Source: an uncultured Anaerolineales bacterium (GTDB lineage: Bacteria; Chloroflexota; Anaerolineae; Anaerolineales; UBA11579). From it: a stretch of DNA of 40,327 nt. The DNA lies in NCBI GenBank assembly GCA_965370435.1, contig CBDUUP010000002.1:1-40327 (forward strand), read 5' to 3'. A program made the position numbers and the translations under genes. The notes beneath the pieces are model-generated. The model ran no database searches and was not told where the DNA came from. It saw only the letters and a list, made by a program, of their open reading frames with translations. Every line of letters starts with the position of its first letter. Within the stretch, counting starts at the first letter, position 1. This document shows, one piece after another, positions 24,745-30,300 of this stretch.

Positions 24745-25608
24745 ATGCGGACGGATATTGTGGTTAAACATTGGCTCAAGCTGCTGCGCTGGCGTTTCCG
24801 GCGTGCGGGCGCGGCCCTGCGCTGGGGCAATGCTCAATTGCAGCAGACCCCGGCGGTCCTCGGCGCCGCCATGCCTAAATCCGGCTCGCATTTGATCAGC
24901 CAGATATTGCGCGGCCTCACCCAACTGGGGCCTTTTGTGGCCCCGGGTTTCCCCCCGGTCAACCGGCGCGAGGATAACAGCATCCTGCCTCCCCAGGCTG
25001 TGTTGGCGAATATTCAGAGGATGTGTCCGGGCGACCTCCGCTATGGCTACATCCGCCACGAAGCGCCTTTTGTGGAAGCCTTGACCCAACCGGGCCGAGC
25101 CATGACATTTGTCTACCGGGACCCCCGCGACCTCATCATCTCTTCCATTCATTATGCCACCGAGATGCACGAAGGCCACGGGATGCACACCTATTACACC
25201 GAGCGCCTTACCAGCATAGAAGCGCGCATCAACGCCGAGATATTCGGAGTGGAAGAGCCGGGCTTCGAGTTCCCCGACATCCGTACGCGCTATGAACGCT
25301 ATCTGGGCTGGTTGGCGCAGCCCGAAACGCTCAGCCTGCGCTTTGAAGACCTCATCCTGGACCGGGACGCCGCTCTGGGCCGGATATGGGATTATCTGGA
25401 GACCCGAGGTTTCACAGCTACCGTGTCCAGGGAGCGGGCCGTGGAAGTTCTTAAGGAGAGCATCGCCCCGAAGAAGTCAGGCACTTTCCGCAAGGGACAA
25501 CCCGGTAACTGGCGAGAGCACTTCACCGAGGCCAATAAAACCGCTTTCAAAGAGGCCGCCGGAGACTTATTGATGCGGTTGAAGTATGAGCAAAACAATG
25601 ATTGGTAA
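24745..25608 (+). CDS. Sulfotransferase (Sulfotransfer_1/3-type, PAPS-dependent)
   Basis: AAMPKSGSHL (5'-PSB loop), FVYRDPRDLIISS (3'-PB), and RKGQPGNWREHF. True start is ATG 24745, 2 nt after the GT2 stop; the upstream part of ORF 24457-25608 overlaps GT2. Confidence 0.8.
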   Translation: MRTDIVVKHWLKLLRWRFRRAGAALRWGNAQLQQTPAVLGAAMPKSGSHLISQILRGLTQLGPFVAPGFPPVNRREDNSILPPQAVLANIQRMCPGDLRYGYIRHEAPFVEALTQPGRAMTFVYRDPRDLIISSIHYATEMHEGHGMHTYYTERLTSIEARINAEIFGVEEPGFEFPDIRTRYERYLGWLAQPETLSLRFEDLILDRDAALGRIWDYLETRGFTATVSRERAVEVLKESIAPKKSGTFRKGQPGNWREHFTEANKTAFKEAAGDLLMRLKYEQNNDW

Positions 25609-25613
25609 ATCGC

Positions 25614-25707
25614 AACCTCCCGCAGGTTTCTCGTCAACATCTTGTTGGCGTGTGGAAGTATATGCGAGCAGTATTGTTTTGTCCGCACCAAGAACCTGCG
25701 GGAGGTT
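25614..25707. repeat. 15-bp perfect inverted repeat with a 64-nt spacer in the ST3/oxidoreductase gap
   Basis: AACCTCCCGCAGGTT (25614-25628) pairs with AACCTGCGGGAGGTT (25693-25707), followed by TTT. An internal mini-hairpin CAACA-TCT-TGTTG sits near 25635-25647. Confidence 0.7.
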
Positions 25708-25745
25708 TTGGTCAATGATTGGTGAGCGAGGTACGAGACGGTAAG

Positions 25746-26739: not shown

Positions 26740-27741
26740 ATGATGAACGATCTCCGTGACCGTCCGGTGTTCATTTGCGGGCATCCCAAGTCGGGGACCA
26801 GCCTGCTGCGCAACCTGCTGGACTCGCATCCTCAACTGGTCGTTTACCCTGAAGAGACCGCATTCTTCCGCCGCTACCTGCCGGAGGCCGGTGACGCCTC
26901 CCTGGAGGAGAAACTGTCCCTGGCGGAGCGGCATTTGATCCACATTTTCGAATGGAACACCCAGGAGCCGCCTTCCCACCAGGAGGGTTTCCCCGACCGG
27001 GATTATTCCGCTATTTCGTTTGAAGAAGTGGCTGCCGCGCTGAGACAGAGCGCTTCTCAAGCAGCGTTGCGCCACGCAGGCGACATCTTGAGCGCCGCCG
27101 CGCTGGCCTTTGGTCAGGTGTCTGGGCAGTTGAGGCCGGATACCCAACGCTGGGTGGAGAAGACTCCTTATAATGAAAGGTATGCGGAGAGGATATTCAC
27201 CTGGTGGCCGGAGGCGCTTTGCGTTCATCTGGTGCGCGACCCGCGGGATAACTACGTTTCCTATACCCGCAAACACCGCAGTTGGACGGCGGAGTTCTTC
27301 GCCGGGAATTGGGTGACTTCCACCCGATCAGGCCTGGCGAACCGGGAACGATTCGGGGTGGAGCGTTACTTGCTGGTTCGATACGAAGACCTGGCGCTAA
27401 CCCCAGAGGAAGTTCTGGAAAAGCTGCGGTTATTTCTAGGCATCGAGGACCATCCAACCCTGCGGACGCCCACCCGCGTGGGCGCGCCCTGGGGAGGCAA
27501 CTCGATGTTCCTGGACCGTTTCAACCAGATCAGCGCCACGCCGATTGGGCGGTGGAAAAATGATCTCCCCCTGGCGGAGGCGGCGGTGATTGAGATGATC
27601 GCCGGCGCGCCAATGCAAGCCTTAGGCTATGACCTCCAGGGCGAAACCCCATTCCAGGCGCGGCTGCGGGCCGCGCGATGGGCGCTGCGCCGAAAGATAA
27701 GCATGCTTCTTAAACAGAGGGAAAGGAATTCAGGTCAATGA
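26740..27741 (+). CDS. Sulfotransferase (Sulfotransfer_1/3-type, PAPS-dependent)
   Basis: FICGHPKSGTSLL (5'-PSB), LVRDPRDNYVS (3'-PB), and IGRWKNDL. First ATG at 26740; the track's GTG 26731 is an alternative. Confidence 0.8.
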   Translation: MMNDLRDRPVFICGHPKSGTSLLRNLLDSHPQLVVYPEETAFFRRYLPEAGDASLEEKLSLAERHLIHIFEWNTQEPPSHQEGFPDRDYSAISFEEVAAALRQSASQAALRHAGDILSAAALAFGQVSGQLRPDTQRWVEKTPYNERYAERIFTWWPEALCVHLVRDPRDNYVSYTRKHRSWTAEFFAGNWVTSTRSGLANRERFGVERYLLVRYEDLALTPEEVLEKLRLFLGIEDHPTLRTPTRVGAPWGGNSMFLDRFNQISATPIGRWKNDLPLAEAAVIEMIAGAPMQALGYDLQGETPFQARLRAARWALRRKISMLLKQRERNSGQ

Positions 27742-28502
27742 ACGCAGTCGTCGTTATTGCAGGTTTTGTTGTCGGTTTCTTGGTCGGCATGACCGGTATG
27801 GGCGGCGGCGCATTAATGACGCCCTTTCTCATCCTCTTCATGCGCATGAATCCCGTGTTAGCCGTGGGCACGGACCTGGTTTTCGCCGCCTTCACCAAGA
27901 TCGCCAGTTCGATCCAACATTCCCGGCAGGGAACCGTCCGGCTGCGCCCGGTCTTCTGGATGGCGGTGGGCAGTTTGCCGGCCTCCTGGTTGAGCGCAAG
28001 CTTCCTCTTGAGCCGCGTGGATGACGAATTCGTCGTCCAGGAAGCGCTCCCCAAGTCATTGGGAGTGATCTTATTGGTGGTCAGTGTGATCGTGTTGGCC
28101 CGTTTGATGAATTGGATAGGCCGCCGGGATGAGGCCGCTGAAACTCATCTACCGCATTGGGCGATCCTGATCGCGGTTGGGGTGGTCGGCGGGTTGCTGG
28201 TCGGGTTTACTTCGGGAGGCGGCGGCACAGTCATCATCGCCTTGCTGTTGATATTCTTCGCCATTCCCACCCCCCAATTGGTGGGGCTGGACGTAGTCCA
28301 CGGGGCGGTTCTGGCGTTATTTGCGGCGATAGCCTACGGGTTGGCCGGGCAGGTGGATTGGCCGCTGGTGGGGTGGCTGCTTTTGGGTTCGATCCCCGGC
28401 ACGCTGTTGGGGACGCGGGCGGTGACCATATTACCCCAAAAAGCGGTTCGTGGTATGATAGGCGGTCTGTTATTTTTAACCGGCCTGCGTTTGCTGTTTT
28501 AG
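27738..28502 (+). CDS. TauE/SafE family membrane transporter (sulfite exporter family)
   Basis: 254 aa with about 8 TM segments. [17 protein letters not shown] and a second-half repeat [23 protein letters not shown] overlap with the upstream gene. Confidence 0.75.
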
Positions 28503-28557
28503 TATAAAAATCATTAAAAACCGGGGCTTTATCCCCCGAATACAAAGGAGTTTGACA

Positions 28558-30300
28558 ATGTCGGAAGAAATACAAAAAGAGGGTATCCTCATCGAGCCTT
28601 ACGGCGGTAAATTGGTGGACCTGATCGCGACCGGCGAGGAACGCCAGGAACTGCTTGAACAGGCCAGCCGTTTGCCGTCCATCCAGATATCCTCCCGCGC
28701 TTTGAATGACCTGGAACTACTGGCGACGGGCGGTTTCTCACCTCTGGATCGCTTCATGGGCCAGGCGGATTACGAGCGTGTTTTGGAAGAGATGCGCCTG
28801 AGCGACGGGACGCTGTTCCCCCTGCCCATCACCCTGACCATGGATGAGGAAGCGCTGCCCCAGGGTGACCGTGTGATCCTGCGCGACGTGCGCAACAACC
28901 GCATCGCGGTCATGAACATCGAAGAAACCTTCAAATGGGATCCCATGAAGGAAGCTCAACTGGCCCTCGGCTCCACCGATCCCCGCCACCCCCTGGTCTC
29001 TGAGATGATCCGCTGGGGCGATACCTGCATCTCTGGAGAGCTCAAGGTGTTGATGCTGCCCCCCTATAACGATTTCGTAGACCTGCGGCGCACACCCGCC
29101 GAGGTGCGCGCTCTGCTGGAGGAGATGGGCAACCGTGACGTGGTCGCTTTCCAGACCCGCAACCCCATGCACCGCATCCACGAGGAATTAACCAAGCGCG
29201 CCGCCGCCGCAGTGGGGGGCAGCCTGCTCATCCACCCGGTGGTGGGCATGACCAAGCCCGGCGACGTAGACCATTACACCCGCTGCCGGGTCTACCGCGC
29301 CGTAGTGGAGAATTACTATGAGGCCAAAAGCACCGTGCTGAGCCTGCTCCCCCTGGCCATGCGGATGGCCGGGCCGAAGGAAGCTCTCTGGCACGCCATC
29401 ATTCGCCGCAACCACGGGGCCACCCATTTCGTGGTGGGCCGCGACCACGCCGGGCCGGGCAAAGATGGGGCCGGGAAACCGTTCTACGGCCCTTACGAGG
29501 CCCAAGAATTGATGGCCGAGCATCAGGACGAGATCGGGGTCAAGCAGGTCCAATTCCAGGAAGTGGTCTACCTGTCCGAAGAAAACCGCTACGAGGAAAA
29601 GTCAAATGTTCCCGAAGGCGCTCCCACATCCTCCATCTCCGGCACCCAGGTGCGGGAGGAATACCTGGCCAAAGGGAAGCTGCTGCCGGAGTGGTTCACC
29701 CGCAAGGAGACCGCCAAGATCCTGACCGACAGCTACCCGCCGCGCCACAAGCAGGGCGTCTCCCTGTGGTTCACCGGTTTGAGCGGGTCGGGCAAGTCCA
29801 CCACCGCCGAGATCGTCACCTCCCTGCTGTTGGAATATGGCCGCCAGGTTACGGTGCTGGACGGCGACATCGTGCGCACCCATCTCTCCAAAGGCCTGGG
29901 CTTCACCCCCGAAGACCGGGACACCAACATCCTCCGCATCGGTTTCGTGGCCGGGGAGATCTCCCGCCACGGCGGCACGGTGATCTGCGCCGCCATCAGC
30001 CCATACCGAGCCGCTCGCAACGAATGCCGCAAGATGATCGGGGAGGAACGTTTCATCGAGGTCTTTGTGGATACGCCCTTGGATGTCTGTGAGACCCGGG
30101 ATGTGAAAGGACTCTACGCCCGTGCCCGCCGCGGCGAGATCAAAGGTTTCACCGGCATTGACGACCCCTACGAAGCGCCCCGCAACCCGGAGATCGCCCT
30201 GGATACGGTGAAATACACCGCCGAGGAGAACGCCCGCCAGATCATTGAATATATGATCGAGTGCGGCTTCTTGCTGCCGGTGAACGGCAATACGAAGTAA
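28558..30300 (+). CDS. Bifunctional sulfate adenylyltransferase / adenylylsulfate kinase (PAPS synthase, Sat-CysC fusion)
   Basis: [12 protein letters not shown] and VGRDHAGPG (ATP sulfurylase). C-terminal [16 protein letters not shown]-loop and LDGDIVR (APS kinase). AAGGAG RBS 7 nt before ATG 28558. Confidence 0.9.

What the first reader, a model, noticed from the sequence alone, without database searches (positions are those of the whole stretch)
24745..30300. Self-contained sulfation cassette: two sulfotransferases, an oxidoreductase, a TauE permease and a dedicated PAPS synthase inside a glycan cluster
Seen: a sulfotransferase (PKSGSHL, RDPRD, KGQPGNWREHF), a Gfo/Idh/MocA oxidoreductase, a second sulfotransferase (HPKSGTS, RDPRDNYVS, IGRWKNDL), a TauE/SafE permease and a fused ATP sulfurylase/APS kinase ([29 protein letters not shown]). 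The oxidoreductase, second sulfotransferase and TauE genes overlap at their stop/start codons; short gaps (137 nt and 55 nt) separate the first sulfotransferase and the PAPS synthase. Established: these are the PAPS-binding 5'-PSB/3'-PB signatures, and Sat plus CysC synthesises PAPS. Inference: the locus brings its own activated-sulfate supply. Together with the two further sulfotransferases at 10435-12169, this predicts a multiply sulfated glycan. Characterised bacterial sulfated glycoconjugates are few (rhizobial Nod factors/LPS, mycobacterial sulfolipids, cyanobacterial synechan). To my knowledge an ABC-transporter-dependent, NulO-gene-containing sulfated polymer has not been described. TauE could import sulfate or handle a sulfo-metabolite.
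Basis: partly seen in the sequence, partly recalled or inferred. Interest (0 to 1): 0.8.

Follow-up and report, generated by a model that had tools for sequence, protein, structure and literature searches.

The report
Sulfation genes inside a sialic-acid-like glycan cluster
This stretch encodes two sulfate-transferring enzymes, a probable sulfate permease and an enzyme that makes the activated sulfate donor PAPS, set inside a large surface-sugar gene cluster that recurs in dozens of uncultured Anaerolineae, which predicts an undescribed sulfated, sialic-acid-like bacterial surface polymer.

Summary
Window 24745-30300 encodes ST1 (Sulfotransfer_1), a Gfo/Idh/MocA oxidoreductase, ST2 (Sulfotransfer_3), a TauE/TSUP permease and a fused ATP sulfurylase/APS kinase. 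The fused enzyme passes the NCBIfam bifunctional model and scores 752 bits to Aquifex 2GKS. All genes are co-directional and tightly packed. ST3 and ST4 at 10435-12169 are also sulfotransferases, closest to heparan sulfate 6-O/2-O-sulfotransferases.

The cassette is a conserved feature. An ST2 profile finds 69 loci in species-representative genomes, nearly all Anaerolineae MAGs. Of 44 loci with full ±6 kb flanks, 36 have Sat-CysC nearby and 38 have nonulosonic acid (NulO) genes.

- The oxidoreductase tracks the NulO module, not the PAPS synthase.
- TauE is a rare accessory, found in 0 of 44 loci and in only two other contigs.
- "Dedicated" PAPS supply is supported by linkage (bare ST2-Sat-CysC pairs exist) but not proven, because no whole genome could be searched.

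The most likely mechanism is cytoplasmic PAPS synthesis, then O-sulfation of a lipid-linked NulO-containing glycan before Wzm/Wzt export. I found no prior description. I rate it a new variant of a known kind, interest about 0.6.

The parts
24745..25608 (+). ST1: cytosolic-SULT-like PAPS-dependent sulfotransferase, 287 aa, with an N-terminal basic helix
   Evidence: Pfam Sulfotransfer_1 3e-11. The family alignment keeps PKSGSH, RDPRD...S and RK..PG.W invariant. AF2 pLDDT is 88.6 and the top PDB matches are cytosolic SULTs. More than 120 homolog clusters at 62-70% identity are found in Anaerolineae/Chloroflexota metagenomes.
25609..25745 (+). Structured 137-nt spacer with a perfect inverted repeat (25614-25628 / 25693-25707)
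   Evidence: RNA minimum free energy -55 kcal/mol, z-score -4.3. The repeat is found 3 times against 0.1 expected. No Rfam match. Function unknown.
25746..26738 (+). Gfo/Idh/MocA NAD(P) sugar oxidoreductase, probably part of the NulO or sugar-precursor pathway rather than of sulfation
   Evidence: Pfam GFO_IDH_MocA, _C and _C3. No NCBIfam equivalog is reached. It is present in 32 of 44 related loci, stays with SDR-CMP-synthetase-NeuB when Sat-CysC is absent, and lies between NeuB and NeuC in L094.
26740..27741 (+). ST2: Sulfotransfer_3-family PAPS-dependent sulfotransferase (an alternative GTG start at 26731 overlaps the Gfo stop)
   Evidence: Pfam 3e-31. Invariant residues are PK.GTS, E38/E39 (aligned with the TPST catalytic Glu region), RDPRDN..S and RW. 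AF2 pLDDT is 91.6 and the top PDB matches are TPST1/2, the CurM/OLS sulfotransferases and mycobacterial Stf9/Stf1. 69 loci are found in species-representative genomes.
27738..28502 (+). TauE/SafE (TSUP) permease, proposed sulfate importer; an accessory component
   Evidence: Pfam TauE 4e-49. It occupies the same position in L088, two copies sit near ST-Gfo in L089, and it is absent from 44 of 44 species-representative loci. An ortholog in L090 lies beside split chromate-transporter genes. TauE-family sulfate uptake has been shown experimentally in other bacteria (PMC11535334 and PMC5840216).
28558..30300 (+). Fused ATP sulfurylase (N-terminal) / APS kinase (C-terminal), i.e. a PAPS synthase
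   Evidence: NCBIfam PRK05537 scores 831 bits against a cutoff of 669. It scores 752 bits to the Aquifex aeolicus bifunctional SAT/APS kinase 2GKS over residues 36-574. HRIH, GRDHAG, the P-loop [13 protein letters not shown] and ISPY are all present.
10435..11316 (+). ST3: Gal-3-O/Sulfotransfer_2-type carbohydrate sulfotransferase
   Evidence: Pfam PF06990 7e-11 and PF03567. Motifs PKAAGST and RDPIERAIS are present.
11306..12169 (+). ST4: paralog of ST3, ending 2 nt before wzm
   Evidence: Pfam PF06990 and PF03567. PDB sequence hits are heparan sulfate 6-O- and 2-O-sulfotransferases.
12172..14309 (+). Wzm (12172-13029) and Wzt (13029-14309, ABC_tran + Wzt_C carbohydrate-binding domain) glycan exporter
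   Evidence: Pfam ABC2_membrane, ABC_tran and Wzt_C. The Wzt start was mapped.
14306..24742 (+). NulO module 1 and glycosyltransferases: Capsule_synth-like transferase, methyltransferase, PseB, RmlD-like reductase, NeuB#1, GT4, CMP-synthetase#1, methyltransferase, conserved 297-aa unknown protein, GT2
   Evidence: Pfam results are. The PseB equivalog scores 489 against a cutoff of 408, and the Capsule_synth proteins weakly hit the BFO_1060 glycosyltransferase family. The order is syntenic in L001, L006, L088, L097 and others.
30320..35650 (+). NulO module 2: SDR (the top NCBIfam hit, model PRK09186 'oxidoreductase', is below its cutoff), PseF-like CMP-synthetase, NeuB#2-SAF-xylose-isomerase-like TIM barrel fusion, second Capsule_synth-like transferase
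   Evidence: Pfam and NCBIfam results are. This module lies immediately downstream of Sat-CysC in 33 of 44 related loci.
35647..40327 (+). Decoration module: methyltransferase, carrier protein (36653-36976), amino acid-[ACP] ligase-like protein, GNAT, AAC(3)-like N-acetyltransferase, and a DUF4910/M28-like ORF that runs off the window end
   Evidence: L087 has the same order and continues with two ST1-type genes, so the cluster is probably cut off by the window end.

Best explanation
Window 24745-30300 is a PAPS-supply and sulfotransfer module embedded in a cluster of at least 37 kb. All of the cluster is transcribed in one direction, and it builds a complex glycan containing nonulosonic acids (NulO) that leaves the cell through a Wzm/Wzt ABC transporter.

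Proposed sequence of events:
1. Sulfate enters the cell. In this organism the co-transcribed TauE/TSUP permease probably helps.
2. The fused Sat-CysC converts sulfate and 2 ATP into PAPS in the cytoplasm.
3. The soluble sulfotransferases ST1 and ST2, and ST3/ST4 further upstream, transfer the sulfo group to hydroxyl groups of sugar residues. This happens while the glycan is still on the cytoplasmic face of the membrane, either on its lipid carrier or on an activated precursor. The acceptor is most likely the NulO or a neighbouring residue.
4. Wzm/Wzt then exports the finished, multiply sulfated, methylated and N-acylated polymer.

The Gfo/Idh/MocA oxidoreductase is a sugar-pathway enzyme of the NulO module, not part of sulfation.

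Shown here: gene identities, catalytic motifs, folds, and conserved linkage among ST2, Sat-CysC and NulO genes in Anaerolineae. Inferred: the acceptor, the timing of sulfation, the direction of TauE transport, and the existence of the sulfated product.
For: PAPS-binding residues are invariant across 30-sequence alignments of the ST1 and ST2 families. High-confidence AF2 models have sulfotransferase folds and no signal peptide or transmembrane segment. Sat-CysC scores 752 bits to the bifunctional Aquifex enzyme with all catalytic motifs intact.

Synteny: the block NeuB-GT4-CMPsyn-unk-GT2-[STs, Gfo]-SatCysC-SDR-CMPsyn-NeuB-Capsule_synth is seen in L001, L004, L006-L008, L011, L013, L078, L088, L097 and L098.

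Quantified linkage: of 44 species-representative loci with full flanks, 36 have Sat-CysC and 38 have NulO genes within 6 kb of the ST2 homolog. Bare ST2-SatCysC pairs outside any NulO context (L141 and four others) tie the PAPS synthase to the sulfotransferase rather than to cysteine synthesis. ST2 homologs lie directly between SDR and CMP-NulO synthetase in about 10 genomes. They also lie next to NeuB/CMP-synthetase in Bacteroidales, Owenweeksia and Blastocatellia MAGs.

The Sat-CysC genes of these loci fall in one Chloroflexota clade, most of whose members have sulfotransferase or glycan genes nearby.

Wzt carries a Wzt_C domain. ABC-type pathways finish the polymer in the cytoplasm, where PAPS is available (established knowledge).

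TauE-family proteins have been shown to take up sulfate (PMC11535334; C. glutamicum CysZ as described in PMC5840216).
Against: No chemistry exists for any organism carrying the locus, and every carrier found is a MAG. The acceptor is unknown.

ST2's nearest structural relatives are protein-tyrosine and polyketide sulfotransferases, and ST1's are small-molecule SULTs. Carbohydrate specificity therefore rests on genomic context alone.

TauE is absent from 44 of 44 related species-level loci.

About 10 genomes keep ST2 without a local Sat-CysC, so an in-cluster PAPS synthase is not obligatory. No CysQ-type PAP phosphatase and no initiating polyprenyl-phosphate transferase were found in the window. 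More distant Sat-CysC homologs sit beside PAPS reductase, CysQ or DASS permeases, so the fused enzyme type is not intrinsically dedicated to glycans. The rest of this genome could not be searched.
Confidence: 0.7

Rival explanations
1. Sat-CysC is the organism's ordinary assimilatory sulfate-activation enzyme and merely happens to lie in the glycan cluster. The sulfotransferases draw on the general PAPS pool, and there is no dedicated supply.
For: More distant fused Sat-CysC homologs are found beside PAPS reductase (2 loci), CysQ (4) and DASS-type sulfate symporters (3). About 10 Anaerolineae genomes carry ST2 in the NulO module without a local Sat-CysC. The rest of the genome could not be inspected.
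Against: Sat-CysC stays within 6 kb of ST2 in 36 of 44 species-level genomes, at 50-77% protein identity and in several different gene orders. It also stays paired with ST2 in five loci that have no NulO genes. No cysH, sulfite reductase or cysteine synthase gene is in the window or in the related loci that had Pfam-level annotation or were scanned here. In Chloroflexus the orthologous gene is likewise flanked by a polysaccharide deacetylase and a sulfotransferase.
Confidence: 0.15
2. The sulfotransferases act on the nonulosonic acid itself, either as free or CMP-activated sugar or as a terminal residue, and make a sulfated NulO. The sulfate may also serve as the chain-end signal read by the Wzt_C domain. 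This is a sharper version of the main explanation.
For: ST2 homologs sit between SDR and CMP-NulO synthetase in about 10 Anaerolineae genomes. They sit next to NeuB/CMP-synthetase in Bacteroidales and Owenweeksia MAGs, and a compact ST-NeuB-Gfo-NeuC-MT-CMPsyn-ST operon exists in a Blastocatellia MAG. 38 of 44 ST2 loci have NulO genes within 6 kb. ST3/ST4 abut wzm-wzt, and Wzt has a Wzt_C domain.
Against: This is association only. The same loci also encode GT2/GT4 transferases and 6-deoxyhexose pathways whose products could be the acceptors. Five ST2-SatCysC pairs have no NulO gene nearby. Adjacency of ST3/ST4 to wzm is not conserved elsewhere. I found no paper with the phrase 'sulfated nonulosonic', so there is no chemical precedent in bacteria.
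Confidence: 0.3
3. ST1 and/or ST2 sulfate something other than a glycan, for example a tyrosine on a surface protein (as RaxST/TPST do), a lipid or a small metabolite. On this view the glycan cluster is only their neighbourhood.
For: The closest solved structures to ST2 are TPST1/2 and the CurM/OLS polyketide sulfotransferases. The closest to ST1 are cytosolic small-molecule SULTs. Some sources label ST2 homologs 'protein-tyrosine sulfotransferase'.
Against: Both genes are translationally coupled or tightly packed with glycosyltransferase and NulO genes, and they keep that context across dozens of genomes. Similarity to TPST is low (about 20% identity, TM-score 0.54) and is mainly in the PAPS-binding core. 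ST3/ST4 do resemble carbohydrate sulfotransferases.
Confidence: 0.08
4. TauE exports sulfite or an organosulfonate, or removes a toxic by-product, rather than importing sulfate.
For: The founding members of PF01925 are sulfite and sulfoacetate exporters (Pfam description; PMC11535334).
Against: TauE sits directly upstream of the sulfate-activating enzyme here and in L088. TauE-family sulfate importers have experimental support. An ortholog neighbours chromate-transporter genes, and chromate is a sulfate analogue. No sulfite- or sulfonate-producing enzyme is in the cluster.
Confidence: 0.2

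Closest known systems
Synechan (xss) cluster of Synechocystis PCC 6803 (Maeda et al. 2021, PMC8205485)
   Same: PAPS-type sulfotransferase genes from different subfamilies are embedded in an extracellular polysaccharide gene cluster alongside many glycosyltransferases. Sulfation is presumed to occur on the lipid-linked glycan in the cytoplasm.
   Different: xss uses Wzx/Wzy/PCP rather than Wzm/Wzt. It has two sulfotransferases and no PAPS synthase or permease gene, and the paper never mentions PAPS. It has no NulO genes and belongs to Cyanobacteria, not Chloroflexota.
Rhizobial nodPQ-nodH, and the LpsS / M. loti KpsS sulfation systems
   Same: A dedicated extra copy of PAPS-synthesis genes lies next to a sulfotransferase that modifies a surface or secreted glycoconjugate. 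M. loti KpsS sulfates a capsular polysaccharide that is exported by an ABC transporter. This is from my own knowledge; KpsS and NodH are mentioned in PMC11625862.
   Different: NodPQ is the CysD/CysN-CysC GTPase type, not the homo-oligomeric Sat-CysC fusion. The acceptors are lipochitooligosaccharide, LPS or KPS. There is no permease and no conserved link to NulO genes. The organisms are Proteobacteria.
Aquifex aeolicus bifunctional SAT/APS kinase (PDB 2GKS)
   Same: It has the same domain order (PUA-like, ATP sulfurylase, APS kinase), scores 752 bits over nearly the full length, and shares all catalytic motifs.
   Different: The similarity is that of the enzyme only. The genomic setting in a glycan cluster is specific to the Chloroflexota clade.
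Vertebrate/echinoderm sialic acid O-sulfation (WSCD1/2; PMC9304399)
   Same: If the NulO is the acceptor, the chemistry would be analogous: PAPS-dependent O-sulfation of a nonulosonic acid.
   Different: Homology to WSCD proteins was not tested. The eukaryotic reaction takes place in the Golgi lumen, and no bacterial example is known to me or was found in the paper library.
E. coli O9a-type ABC-transporter pathway with a chain-terminating modification read by the Wzt C-terminal domain
   Same: Wzm and a Wzt carrying Wzt_C are present. Modifying enzymes (ST3/ST4 and methyltransferases) are encoded directly beside the exporter.
   Different: No WbdD-like kinase/methyltransferase terminator was identified. 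Sulfate as the cap is speculation. These organisms are Chloroflexota, whose envelope structure is debated and for which no LPS is known (own knowledge).
Sulfated O-polysaccharides of marine bacteria (for example Poseidonocella spp., Kokoulin et al. 2017)
   Same: Chemically defined bacterial polymers carry sulfate, and in some cases also pseudaminic acid or Kdo. This is from my own knowledge; only the reference title was seen.
   Different: As far as I know their biosynthetic genes have not been defined. They are Proteobacteria, and no link to this cluster was tested.

Membership tests
PAPS-dependent sulfotransferases (PF00685 / PF13469 / PF03567 / PF06990) | 5'-phosphosulfate-binding loop (PKxGT/S-type P-loop) | tested here: met
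   ST1 has PKSGSH, ST2 PKSGTS, ST3 PKAAGST and ST4 PKTAGTT. The loop is invariant in 30-sequence alignments of the ST1 and ST2 families and aligns to the same loop in SULT2A8, TPST1 and HS6ST3.
PAPS-dependent sulfotransferases (PF00685 / PF13469 / PF03567 / PF06990) | 3'-phosphate-binding motif (RDP....S on strand-helix) | tested here: met
   ST1 has RDPRDLIIS, ST2 RDPRDNYVS, ST3 RDPIERAIS and ST4 RDPVERIIS. R, D, P and S are invariant in both family alignments.
PAPS-dependent sulfotransferases (PF00685 / PF13469 / PF03567 / PF06990) | Sulfotransferase alpha/beta fold | tested here: met
   The AF2 models have pLDDT 91.6 (ST2) and 88.6 (ST1). All top Foldseek PDB matches are sulfotransferases at probability 1.00 with TM-score about 0.5-0.64. 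ST3 and ST4 were not modelled.
PAPS-dependent sulfotransferases (PF00685 / PF13469 / PF03567 / PF06990) | Catalytic base (His or Glu) next to the acceptor site | tested here: inconclusive
   ST2 has invariant E38/E39, aligned with the EE of TPST that includes its catalytic Glu. In ST1, the His at the position expected for the SULT catalytic His is not conserved in the family. Other invariant residues (H49, E76, H145) are candidates.
PAPS-dependent sulfotransferases (PF00685 / PF13469 / PF03567 / PF06990) | Sulfo transfer from PAPS to a defined acceptor | not testable with these tools
   This needs recombinant enzyme assays.
Bifunctional Sat-CysC PAPS synthase (NCBIfam PRK05537; Aquifex 2GKS type) | Full-length match above the curated cutoff, with PUA-like, ATP sulfurylase and APS kinase domains in that order | tested here: met
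   831 bits against a cutoff of 669. It scores 752 bits to 2GKS.
Bifunctional Sat-CysC PAPS synthase (NCBIfam PRK05537; Aquifex 2GKS type) | Catalytic motifs of both halves intact (HxxH and GRD for the sulfurylase; P-loop, DGD and ISP for the kinase) | tested here: met
   [28 protein letters not shown] and ISPY are read in the translation and aligned residue by residue with 2GKS.
Dedicated (non-assimilatory) PAPS supply, nodPQ-like in role | A separate assimilatory sulfate-activation route exists elsewhere in the genome | not testable with these tools
   The window is a 40-kb contig that is not in the searchable genome collection, and whole genomes cannot be scanned here. Indirect support comes from linkage to ST2 in 36 of 44 genomes and from bare ST2-SatCysC pairs.
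TauE/SafE (TSUP) permeases | Full-length Pfam PF01925 match above the gathering score | tested here: met
   167.9 bits against a cutoff of 32.6, covering residues 6-252.
TauE/SafE (TSUP) permeases | Sulfate uptake as the transported function | not testable with these tools
   Only context is available. The gene is adjacent to Sat-CysC here and in L088, and an ortholog lies beside chromate-transporter genes. There is published precedent for sulfate uptake by family members.
ABC-transporter-dependent glycan pathway | Wzm permease plus Wzt ATPase, optionally with a Wzt_C carbohydrate-binding domain | tested here: met
   ABC2_membrane 1e-20, ABC_tran 7e-19 and Wzt_C 1e-10. No Wzx or Wzy was found in the window.
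ABC-transporter-dependent glycan pathway | Initiating polyprenyl-phosphate glycosyl-1-phosphate transferase in the locus | tested here: not met
   No Glycos_transf_4 or Bac_transf hit was found in any window ORF scanned. The gene may lie outside the window, which is cut at its 3' end.
Nonulosonic acid biosynthesis cluster | NeuB-family synthase plus CMP-NulO synthetase | tested here: met
   There are two NeuB genes (6e-62 and 3e-84) and two CTP_transf_3 genes. The PseB equivalog is above its cutoff. The NeuB and PseF models score below their equivalog cutoffs, so the exact NulO type is undetermined.
Nonulosonic acid biosynthesis cluster | Aminotransferase (PseC/LegC type) for 5,7-diamino NulOs | tested here: not met
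   No aminotransferase family hit was found in any ORF scanned. PseB is followed by an RmlD-like reductase instead.
Synechan-type (xss) sulfated EPS system | Wzx/Wzy-dependent assembly, with sulfotransferases but no in-cluster PAPS genes | tested here: not met
   The window has Wzm/Wzt and a Sat-CysC gene. The composition of xss is taken from PMC8205485. This locus works like xss but is not a member.

The most novel reading that the evidence does not exclude
The ST2 family, and perhaps ST1 too, would be a NulO-directed sulfotransferase family. On this reading Anaerolineae would make a sulfated nonulosonic acid, to my knowledge the first outside animals, on an ABC-exported surface polymer, fed by an in-cluster PAPS synthase.

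This would identify abundant filamentous Anaerolineae as hidden producers of the 'sialylated and sulfated' anionic glycoconjugates measured in anaerobic and aerobic granular sludge EPS. The sulfotransferase genes behind those glycoconjugates could not be found by BLAST with the known reference sulfotransferases (PMC10483923).
Probability: 0.3. Interest if true: 0.8.

Novelty: new variant of a known kind. Interest (0 to 1): 0.6.

Why it matters
Sulfated glycans are routine in animals and algae but are considered rare in bacteria. The synechan paper states that sulfotransferase genes were not known in other bacterial EPS clusters.

Here a complete genetic logic is present in one conserved locus: an optional permease, a PAPS synthase, up to four or more sulfotransferases, two NulO pathways and an ABC exporter. 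The locus occurs in at least 40 species-level Anaerolineae genomes.

This gives three things:
- a concrete, testable gene set for bacterial glycan sulfation outside Cyanobacteria and rhizobia;
- marker families (ST1-type, ST2-type, 'STx'-type) for mining metagenomes, which addresses the stated bottleneck that sludge EPS is chemically sulfated and sialylated while the known reference sulfotransferases find almost nothing;
- a possible route to enzymes that sulfate sialic-acid-like sugars.

It also says something about the surface chemistry of a ubiquitous but poorly cultured phylum.

Tried and rejected
- **Source contig.** An exact look-up of the window's TauE protein found no record, so the source contig and the rest of the genome could not be retrieved. 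For that reason the 'only assimilatory copy?' test could not be run.
- **RNA elements.** An Rfam scan of the whole window found nothing. Promoter and terminator consensus scans of 24000-32000 were at chance level.
- **ST3/ST4 next to wzm-wzt.** I tested whether this adjacency is conserved. ST4 homologs are only 36-42% identical, are scattered across phyla, and show no consistent adjacency to wzm. The 'sulfate cap read by Wzt_C' idea remains speculation.
- **The 905-aa membrane protein.** I tested whether it is the counterpart of the PMT_2 GT-C protein that replaces TauE in L001. There is no significant similarity.
- **Sat-CysC type.** I considered that the fused Sat-CysC type is inherently glycan-dedicated and rejected the idea. 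Distant homologs have mixed neighbours that include PAPS reductase.
- **Oxidoreductase.** I considered filing it under sulfation and rejected that on co-variation evidence.
- **Prior descriptions.** Literature searches for an Anaerolineae/Chloroflexi sulfotransferase-NulO cluster, or for bacterial sulfated NulOs, found none. The library lacks most subscription journals, so this is not proof of absence.

Full report

Yes. The window is almost entirely one co-directional (+ strand) gene array running from about 2260 to its 3' end. In the flagged stretch, Pfam assigns the following:
- 24745-25608: Sulfotransfer_1 (ST1).
- 25746-26738: Gfo/Idh/MocA.
- 26740-27741: Sulfotransfer_3 (ST2).
- 27738-28502: TauE.
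- 28558-30300: PUA_2 + ATP-sulfurylase + APS_kinase.

The last protein passes NCBI's curated cutoff for the bifunctional sulfate adenylyltransferase/adenylylsulfate kinase (831 bits against 669). It aligns over nearly its whole length with the Aquifex aeolicus bifunctional enzyme 2GKS (752 bits). The HxxH, GRDHAG, P-loop, DGD and ISP motifs are all intact.

- ST2 and TauE share an ATGA overlap.
- Gfo and ST2 either overlap by 8 nt (GTG 26731) or are 1 nt apart (ATG 26740).
- A 137-nt gap separates ST1 from Gfo.
- A 55-nt gap with an AAGGAG ribosome-binding site lies before the Sat-CysC ATG.

The two further sulfotransferases at 10435-12169 are also real. They carry PKxxGxT and RDPxERxxS motifs and resemble heparan sulfate 6-O- and 2-O-sulfotransferases in sequence.

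**2. Are the sulfotransferases likely to be active?**

Both ST1 and ST2 belong to large families: more than 120 clusters each at 54-70% identity, and where named, from Anaerolineae/Chloroflexota MAGs.

In 30-sequence alignments, the 5'-phosphosulfate loop, the RDP....S 3'-phosphate motif and a C-terminal R(K)..G.W / RW element are invariant. ST2 also keeps an invariant Glu-Glu pair that aligns with the catalytic Glu region of TPST.

AlphaFold models are confident (pLDDT 91.6 and 88.6). They match only sulfotransferases in the PDB. ST2 is closest to TPST1/2, CurM/OLS and mycobacterial Stf9/Stf1. ST1 is closest to cytosolic SULTs.

Neither protein has a signal peptide or membrane span. ST1 has a conserved basic N-terminal helix that could hold it at the membrane; that is an inference.

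The catalytic base of ST1 could not be pinned down.

**3. What surrounds the cassette?**

Upstream genes:
- GDP-mannose dehydratase.
- A FAAL-like adenylating enzyme.
- A 905-aa polytopic membrane protein with no family hit.
- A MarR-type regulator.
- Two epimerase/reductases.
- ST3 and ST4.
- Wzm and Wzt (with a Wzt_C domain).

Next comes a first NulO module: a Capsule_synth-like transferase, a methyltransferase, a PseB equivalog above its cutoff, an RmlD-like reductase, NeuB, GT4, a CMP-synthetase, a methyltransferase, a conserved unknown protein and GT2.

Downstream of the cassette is a second NulO module. It contains an SDR whose best NCBIfam hit is below cutoff, a PseF-like CMP-synthetase, a NeuB-SAF-xylose-isomerase-like fusion and a second Capsule_synth-like transferase.

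After that comes a carrier-protein / amino acid-ACP ligase / GNAT / AAC(3)-like decoration module. It runs off the end of the window.

No aminotransferase, Wzx/Wzy or initiating phosphotransferase was found.

**4. Is the arrangement conserved?**

Strongly. The closest Sat-CysC homologs in species-representative genomes (71-76% identity) are nearly all embedded in the same block: NeuB-GT4-CMPsyn-unk-GT2-[STs/Gfo]-SatCysC-SDR-CMPsyn-NeuB-Capsule_synth. Contexts retrieved through ST2 and ST1 homologs show the same picture.

A profile scan with the ST2 alignment returned 69 loci, about 65 of them Anaerolineae-type MAGs. Among the 44 loci with full ±6 kb flanks:
- 36 have Sat-CysC.
- 38 have at least one NulO gene.
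- 31 have both.
- 32 have Gfo.
- 33 have the SDR.
- 0 have TauE.

Three sulfotransferase families (ST1-type, ST2-type and a third, 'STx') swap in and out of the slots around Gfo. In the window, an ST1-type gene occupies the slot that usually holds STx, and it is followed by a structured 137-nt spacer.

L088 has exactly the window's order including TauE. L089 has two TauE genes near ST-Gfo.

**5. What the variants teach**

(a) Five genomes keep a bare ST2-SatCysC pair away from any NulO gene. In L141 the neighbours are a GH2 mannosidase and a sugar ABC importer. The PAPS synthase is therefore tied to the sulfotransferase and not to cysteine synthesis.

(b) About ten genomes lack a local Sat-CysC but keep ST2 wedged between SDR and CMP-NulO synthetase, with Gfo alongside. 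ST2 and Gfo therefore belong with the NulO module, and an in-cluster PAPS synthase is an add-on.

(c) Remote ST2 homologs in Bacteroidales and Owenweeksia also sit beside NeuB/CMP-synthetase. A Blastocatellia contig carries ST-NeuB-Gfo-NeuC-MT-CMPsyn-ST.

(d) A neighbour-joining tree places the cluster-embedded Sat-CysC genes in one Chloroflexota clade. That clade also contains the Chloroflexus copies. In the cultured C. islandicus the gene is flanked by a polysaccharide deacetylase and a Sulfotransfer_1, inside a different wzm/wzt cluster.

(e) More distant homologs have mixed neighbours: CysQ, DASS permeases, PAPS reductase and sulfotransferases.

**6. Mechanism**

The best-supported reading is as follows.
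1. Sulfate enters the cell. Here it is helped by TauE, whose family has members shown experimentally to take up sulfate (PMC11535334; C. glutamicum CysZ as described in PMC5840216).
2. Sat-CysC makes PAPS.
3. The soluble sulfotransferases O-sulfate the glycan on the cytoplasmic side.
4. Wzm/Wzt exports it.

An ABC-type pathway suits this chemistry because the whole polymer is finished where PAPS is available (established knowledge).

The acceptor is not known. Genomic association favours the NulO or its immediate neighbour. The rival explanations are listed separately with their refutation tests.

**7. Comparison with known systems**

The locus works like the synechan xss cluster and like rhizobial nodPQ/nodH-type sulfation, but it is a member of neither. 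xss is Wzx/Wzy-dependent and has no PAPS genes. NodPQ is the CysDN-CysC enzyme type (own knowledge).

Granular-sludge EPS has been shown chemically to carry both NulOs and sulfate. BLAST with the known reference sulfotransferases found few candidates, and the authors call this a bottleneck (PMC10483923).

A Shark Bay mat study that searched with PF13469 reported no sulfotransferase in its two Chloroflexi MAGs.

I found no paper that describes this Anaerolineae locus or a bacterial sulfated NulO. The library does not cover most subscription journals.

From my own knowledge, sulfated O-polysaccharides containing Kdo or Pse are chemically known in marine Poseidonocella. A sulfated NulO-containing polymer is therefore not unprecedented chemically, but its genetics are undescribed.

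**8. Verdict**

Novelty: a new variant of a known kind, namely PAPS-dependent glycan sulfation in a new architecture, a new phylum and with a conserved link to NulO genes.

Interest is 0.6. It would be higher if the sulfotransferases prove to be NulO-specific.

Noticed in passing
window 25609-25745: The ST1-Gfo spacer holds a perfect 15-nt inverted repeat (25614-25628 / 25693-25707) that closes a region of about 63 nt. The RNA minimum free energy is -55 kcal/mol with z-score -4.3, and there is no Rfam match. The slot upstream of Gfo holds a different sulfotransferase family in most relatives, so this could be a gene-replacement scar or an mRNA processing or stability element.
   Followed up: partly
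window 4967-7684: A 905-aa ORF has no Pfam or NCBIfam hit. It has roughly 13-15 hydrophobic segments and a soluble C-terminal domain of about 200 aa, and the DNA is T-rich (AT skew -0.24). It may be a GT-C-like membrane glycosyl- or oligosaccharyl-transferase that attaches the exported glycan. It shows no similarity to the PMT_2 protein found in relatives.
   Followed up: partly
window 36653-40327: This stretch encodes a phosphopantetheine carrier protein, a class-II aaRS-like amino acid-[ACP] ligase (below cutoff), a GNAT, an AAC(3)-like N-acetyltransferase and a DUF4910/M28-like ORF that is cut by the window end. The order is the same in L087, where two ST1-type sulfotransferases, an MptE-like protein and PMT_2 follow. 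It suggests aminoacyl/acyl decoration of an amino sugar, and it suggests the cluster continues beyond the window.
   Followed up: partly
window 16880-19970: A PseB equivalog above its cutoff is followed by an RmlD-like reductase and NeuB, and there is no PseC/LegC-type aminotransferase anywhere in the window. NulO#1 may therefore be a non-7-amino 9-deoxy nonulosonic acid rather than pseudaminic acid proper.
   Followed up: no
window 31972-33864: NeuB#2 is fused to a C-terminal xylose-isomerase-like TIM barrel (AP_endonuc_2). The fusion is conserved in L001, L087, L088, L097 and L098. In other relatives the adjacent CMP-synthetase instead carries a HAD phosphatase domain (L004, L006).
   Followed up: no
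L016 (Chloroflexus islandicus isl-2, NZ_LWQS01000103.1) 8296-12482: In this cultured Chloroflexus, the genes GT2, polysaccharide deacetylase, Sat-CysC and Sulfotransfer_1 lie inside a wzm/wzt + Wzz-kinase cluster. A deacetylase next to a sulfotransferase recalls heparan N-deacetylase/N-sulfotransferase logic.
   Followed up: partly
L094 (Blastocatellia MAG DASTET010000295.1) 252-7053: A compact operon encodes Sulfotransfer_3, NeuB, Gfo/Idh/MocA, NeuC-type 2-epimerase, a methyltransferase, a CMP-synthetase and a Gal-3-O-sulfotransferase-like protein. This shows the association of sulfotransferases, NulO genes and Gfo in a second phylum.
   Followed up: partly
L090 (JBMOMN010000020.1) 8001-10686: A TauE ortholog (57% identical) is followed by two half-size chromate-transporter genes and a universal stress protein. 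This is consistent with specificity for tetrahedral oxyanions such as sulfate and chromate in this TauE clade.
   Followed up: no
window 3254-4963 and 7759-8244: A FAAL-like fatty acyl-AMP ligase and a MarR/winged-helix regulator are encoded inside the glycan cluster. This hints at a lipid or acyl substituent and at local transcriptional control.
   Followed up: no
window 28521-28539 and 31150-31200: Short GC-rich hairpins lie in the TauE-Sat and SDR-CMPsyn intergenic gaps. They may be attenuators or processing sites. The terminator scan overall was at chance level.
   Followed up: no
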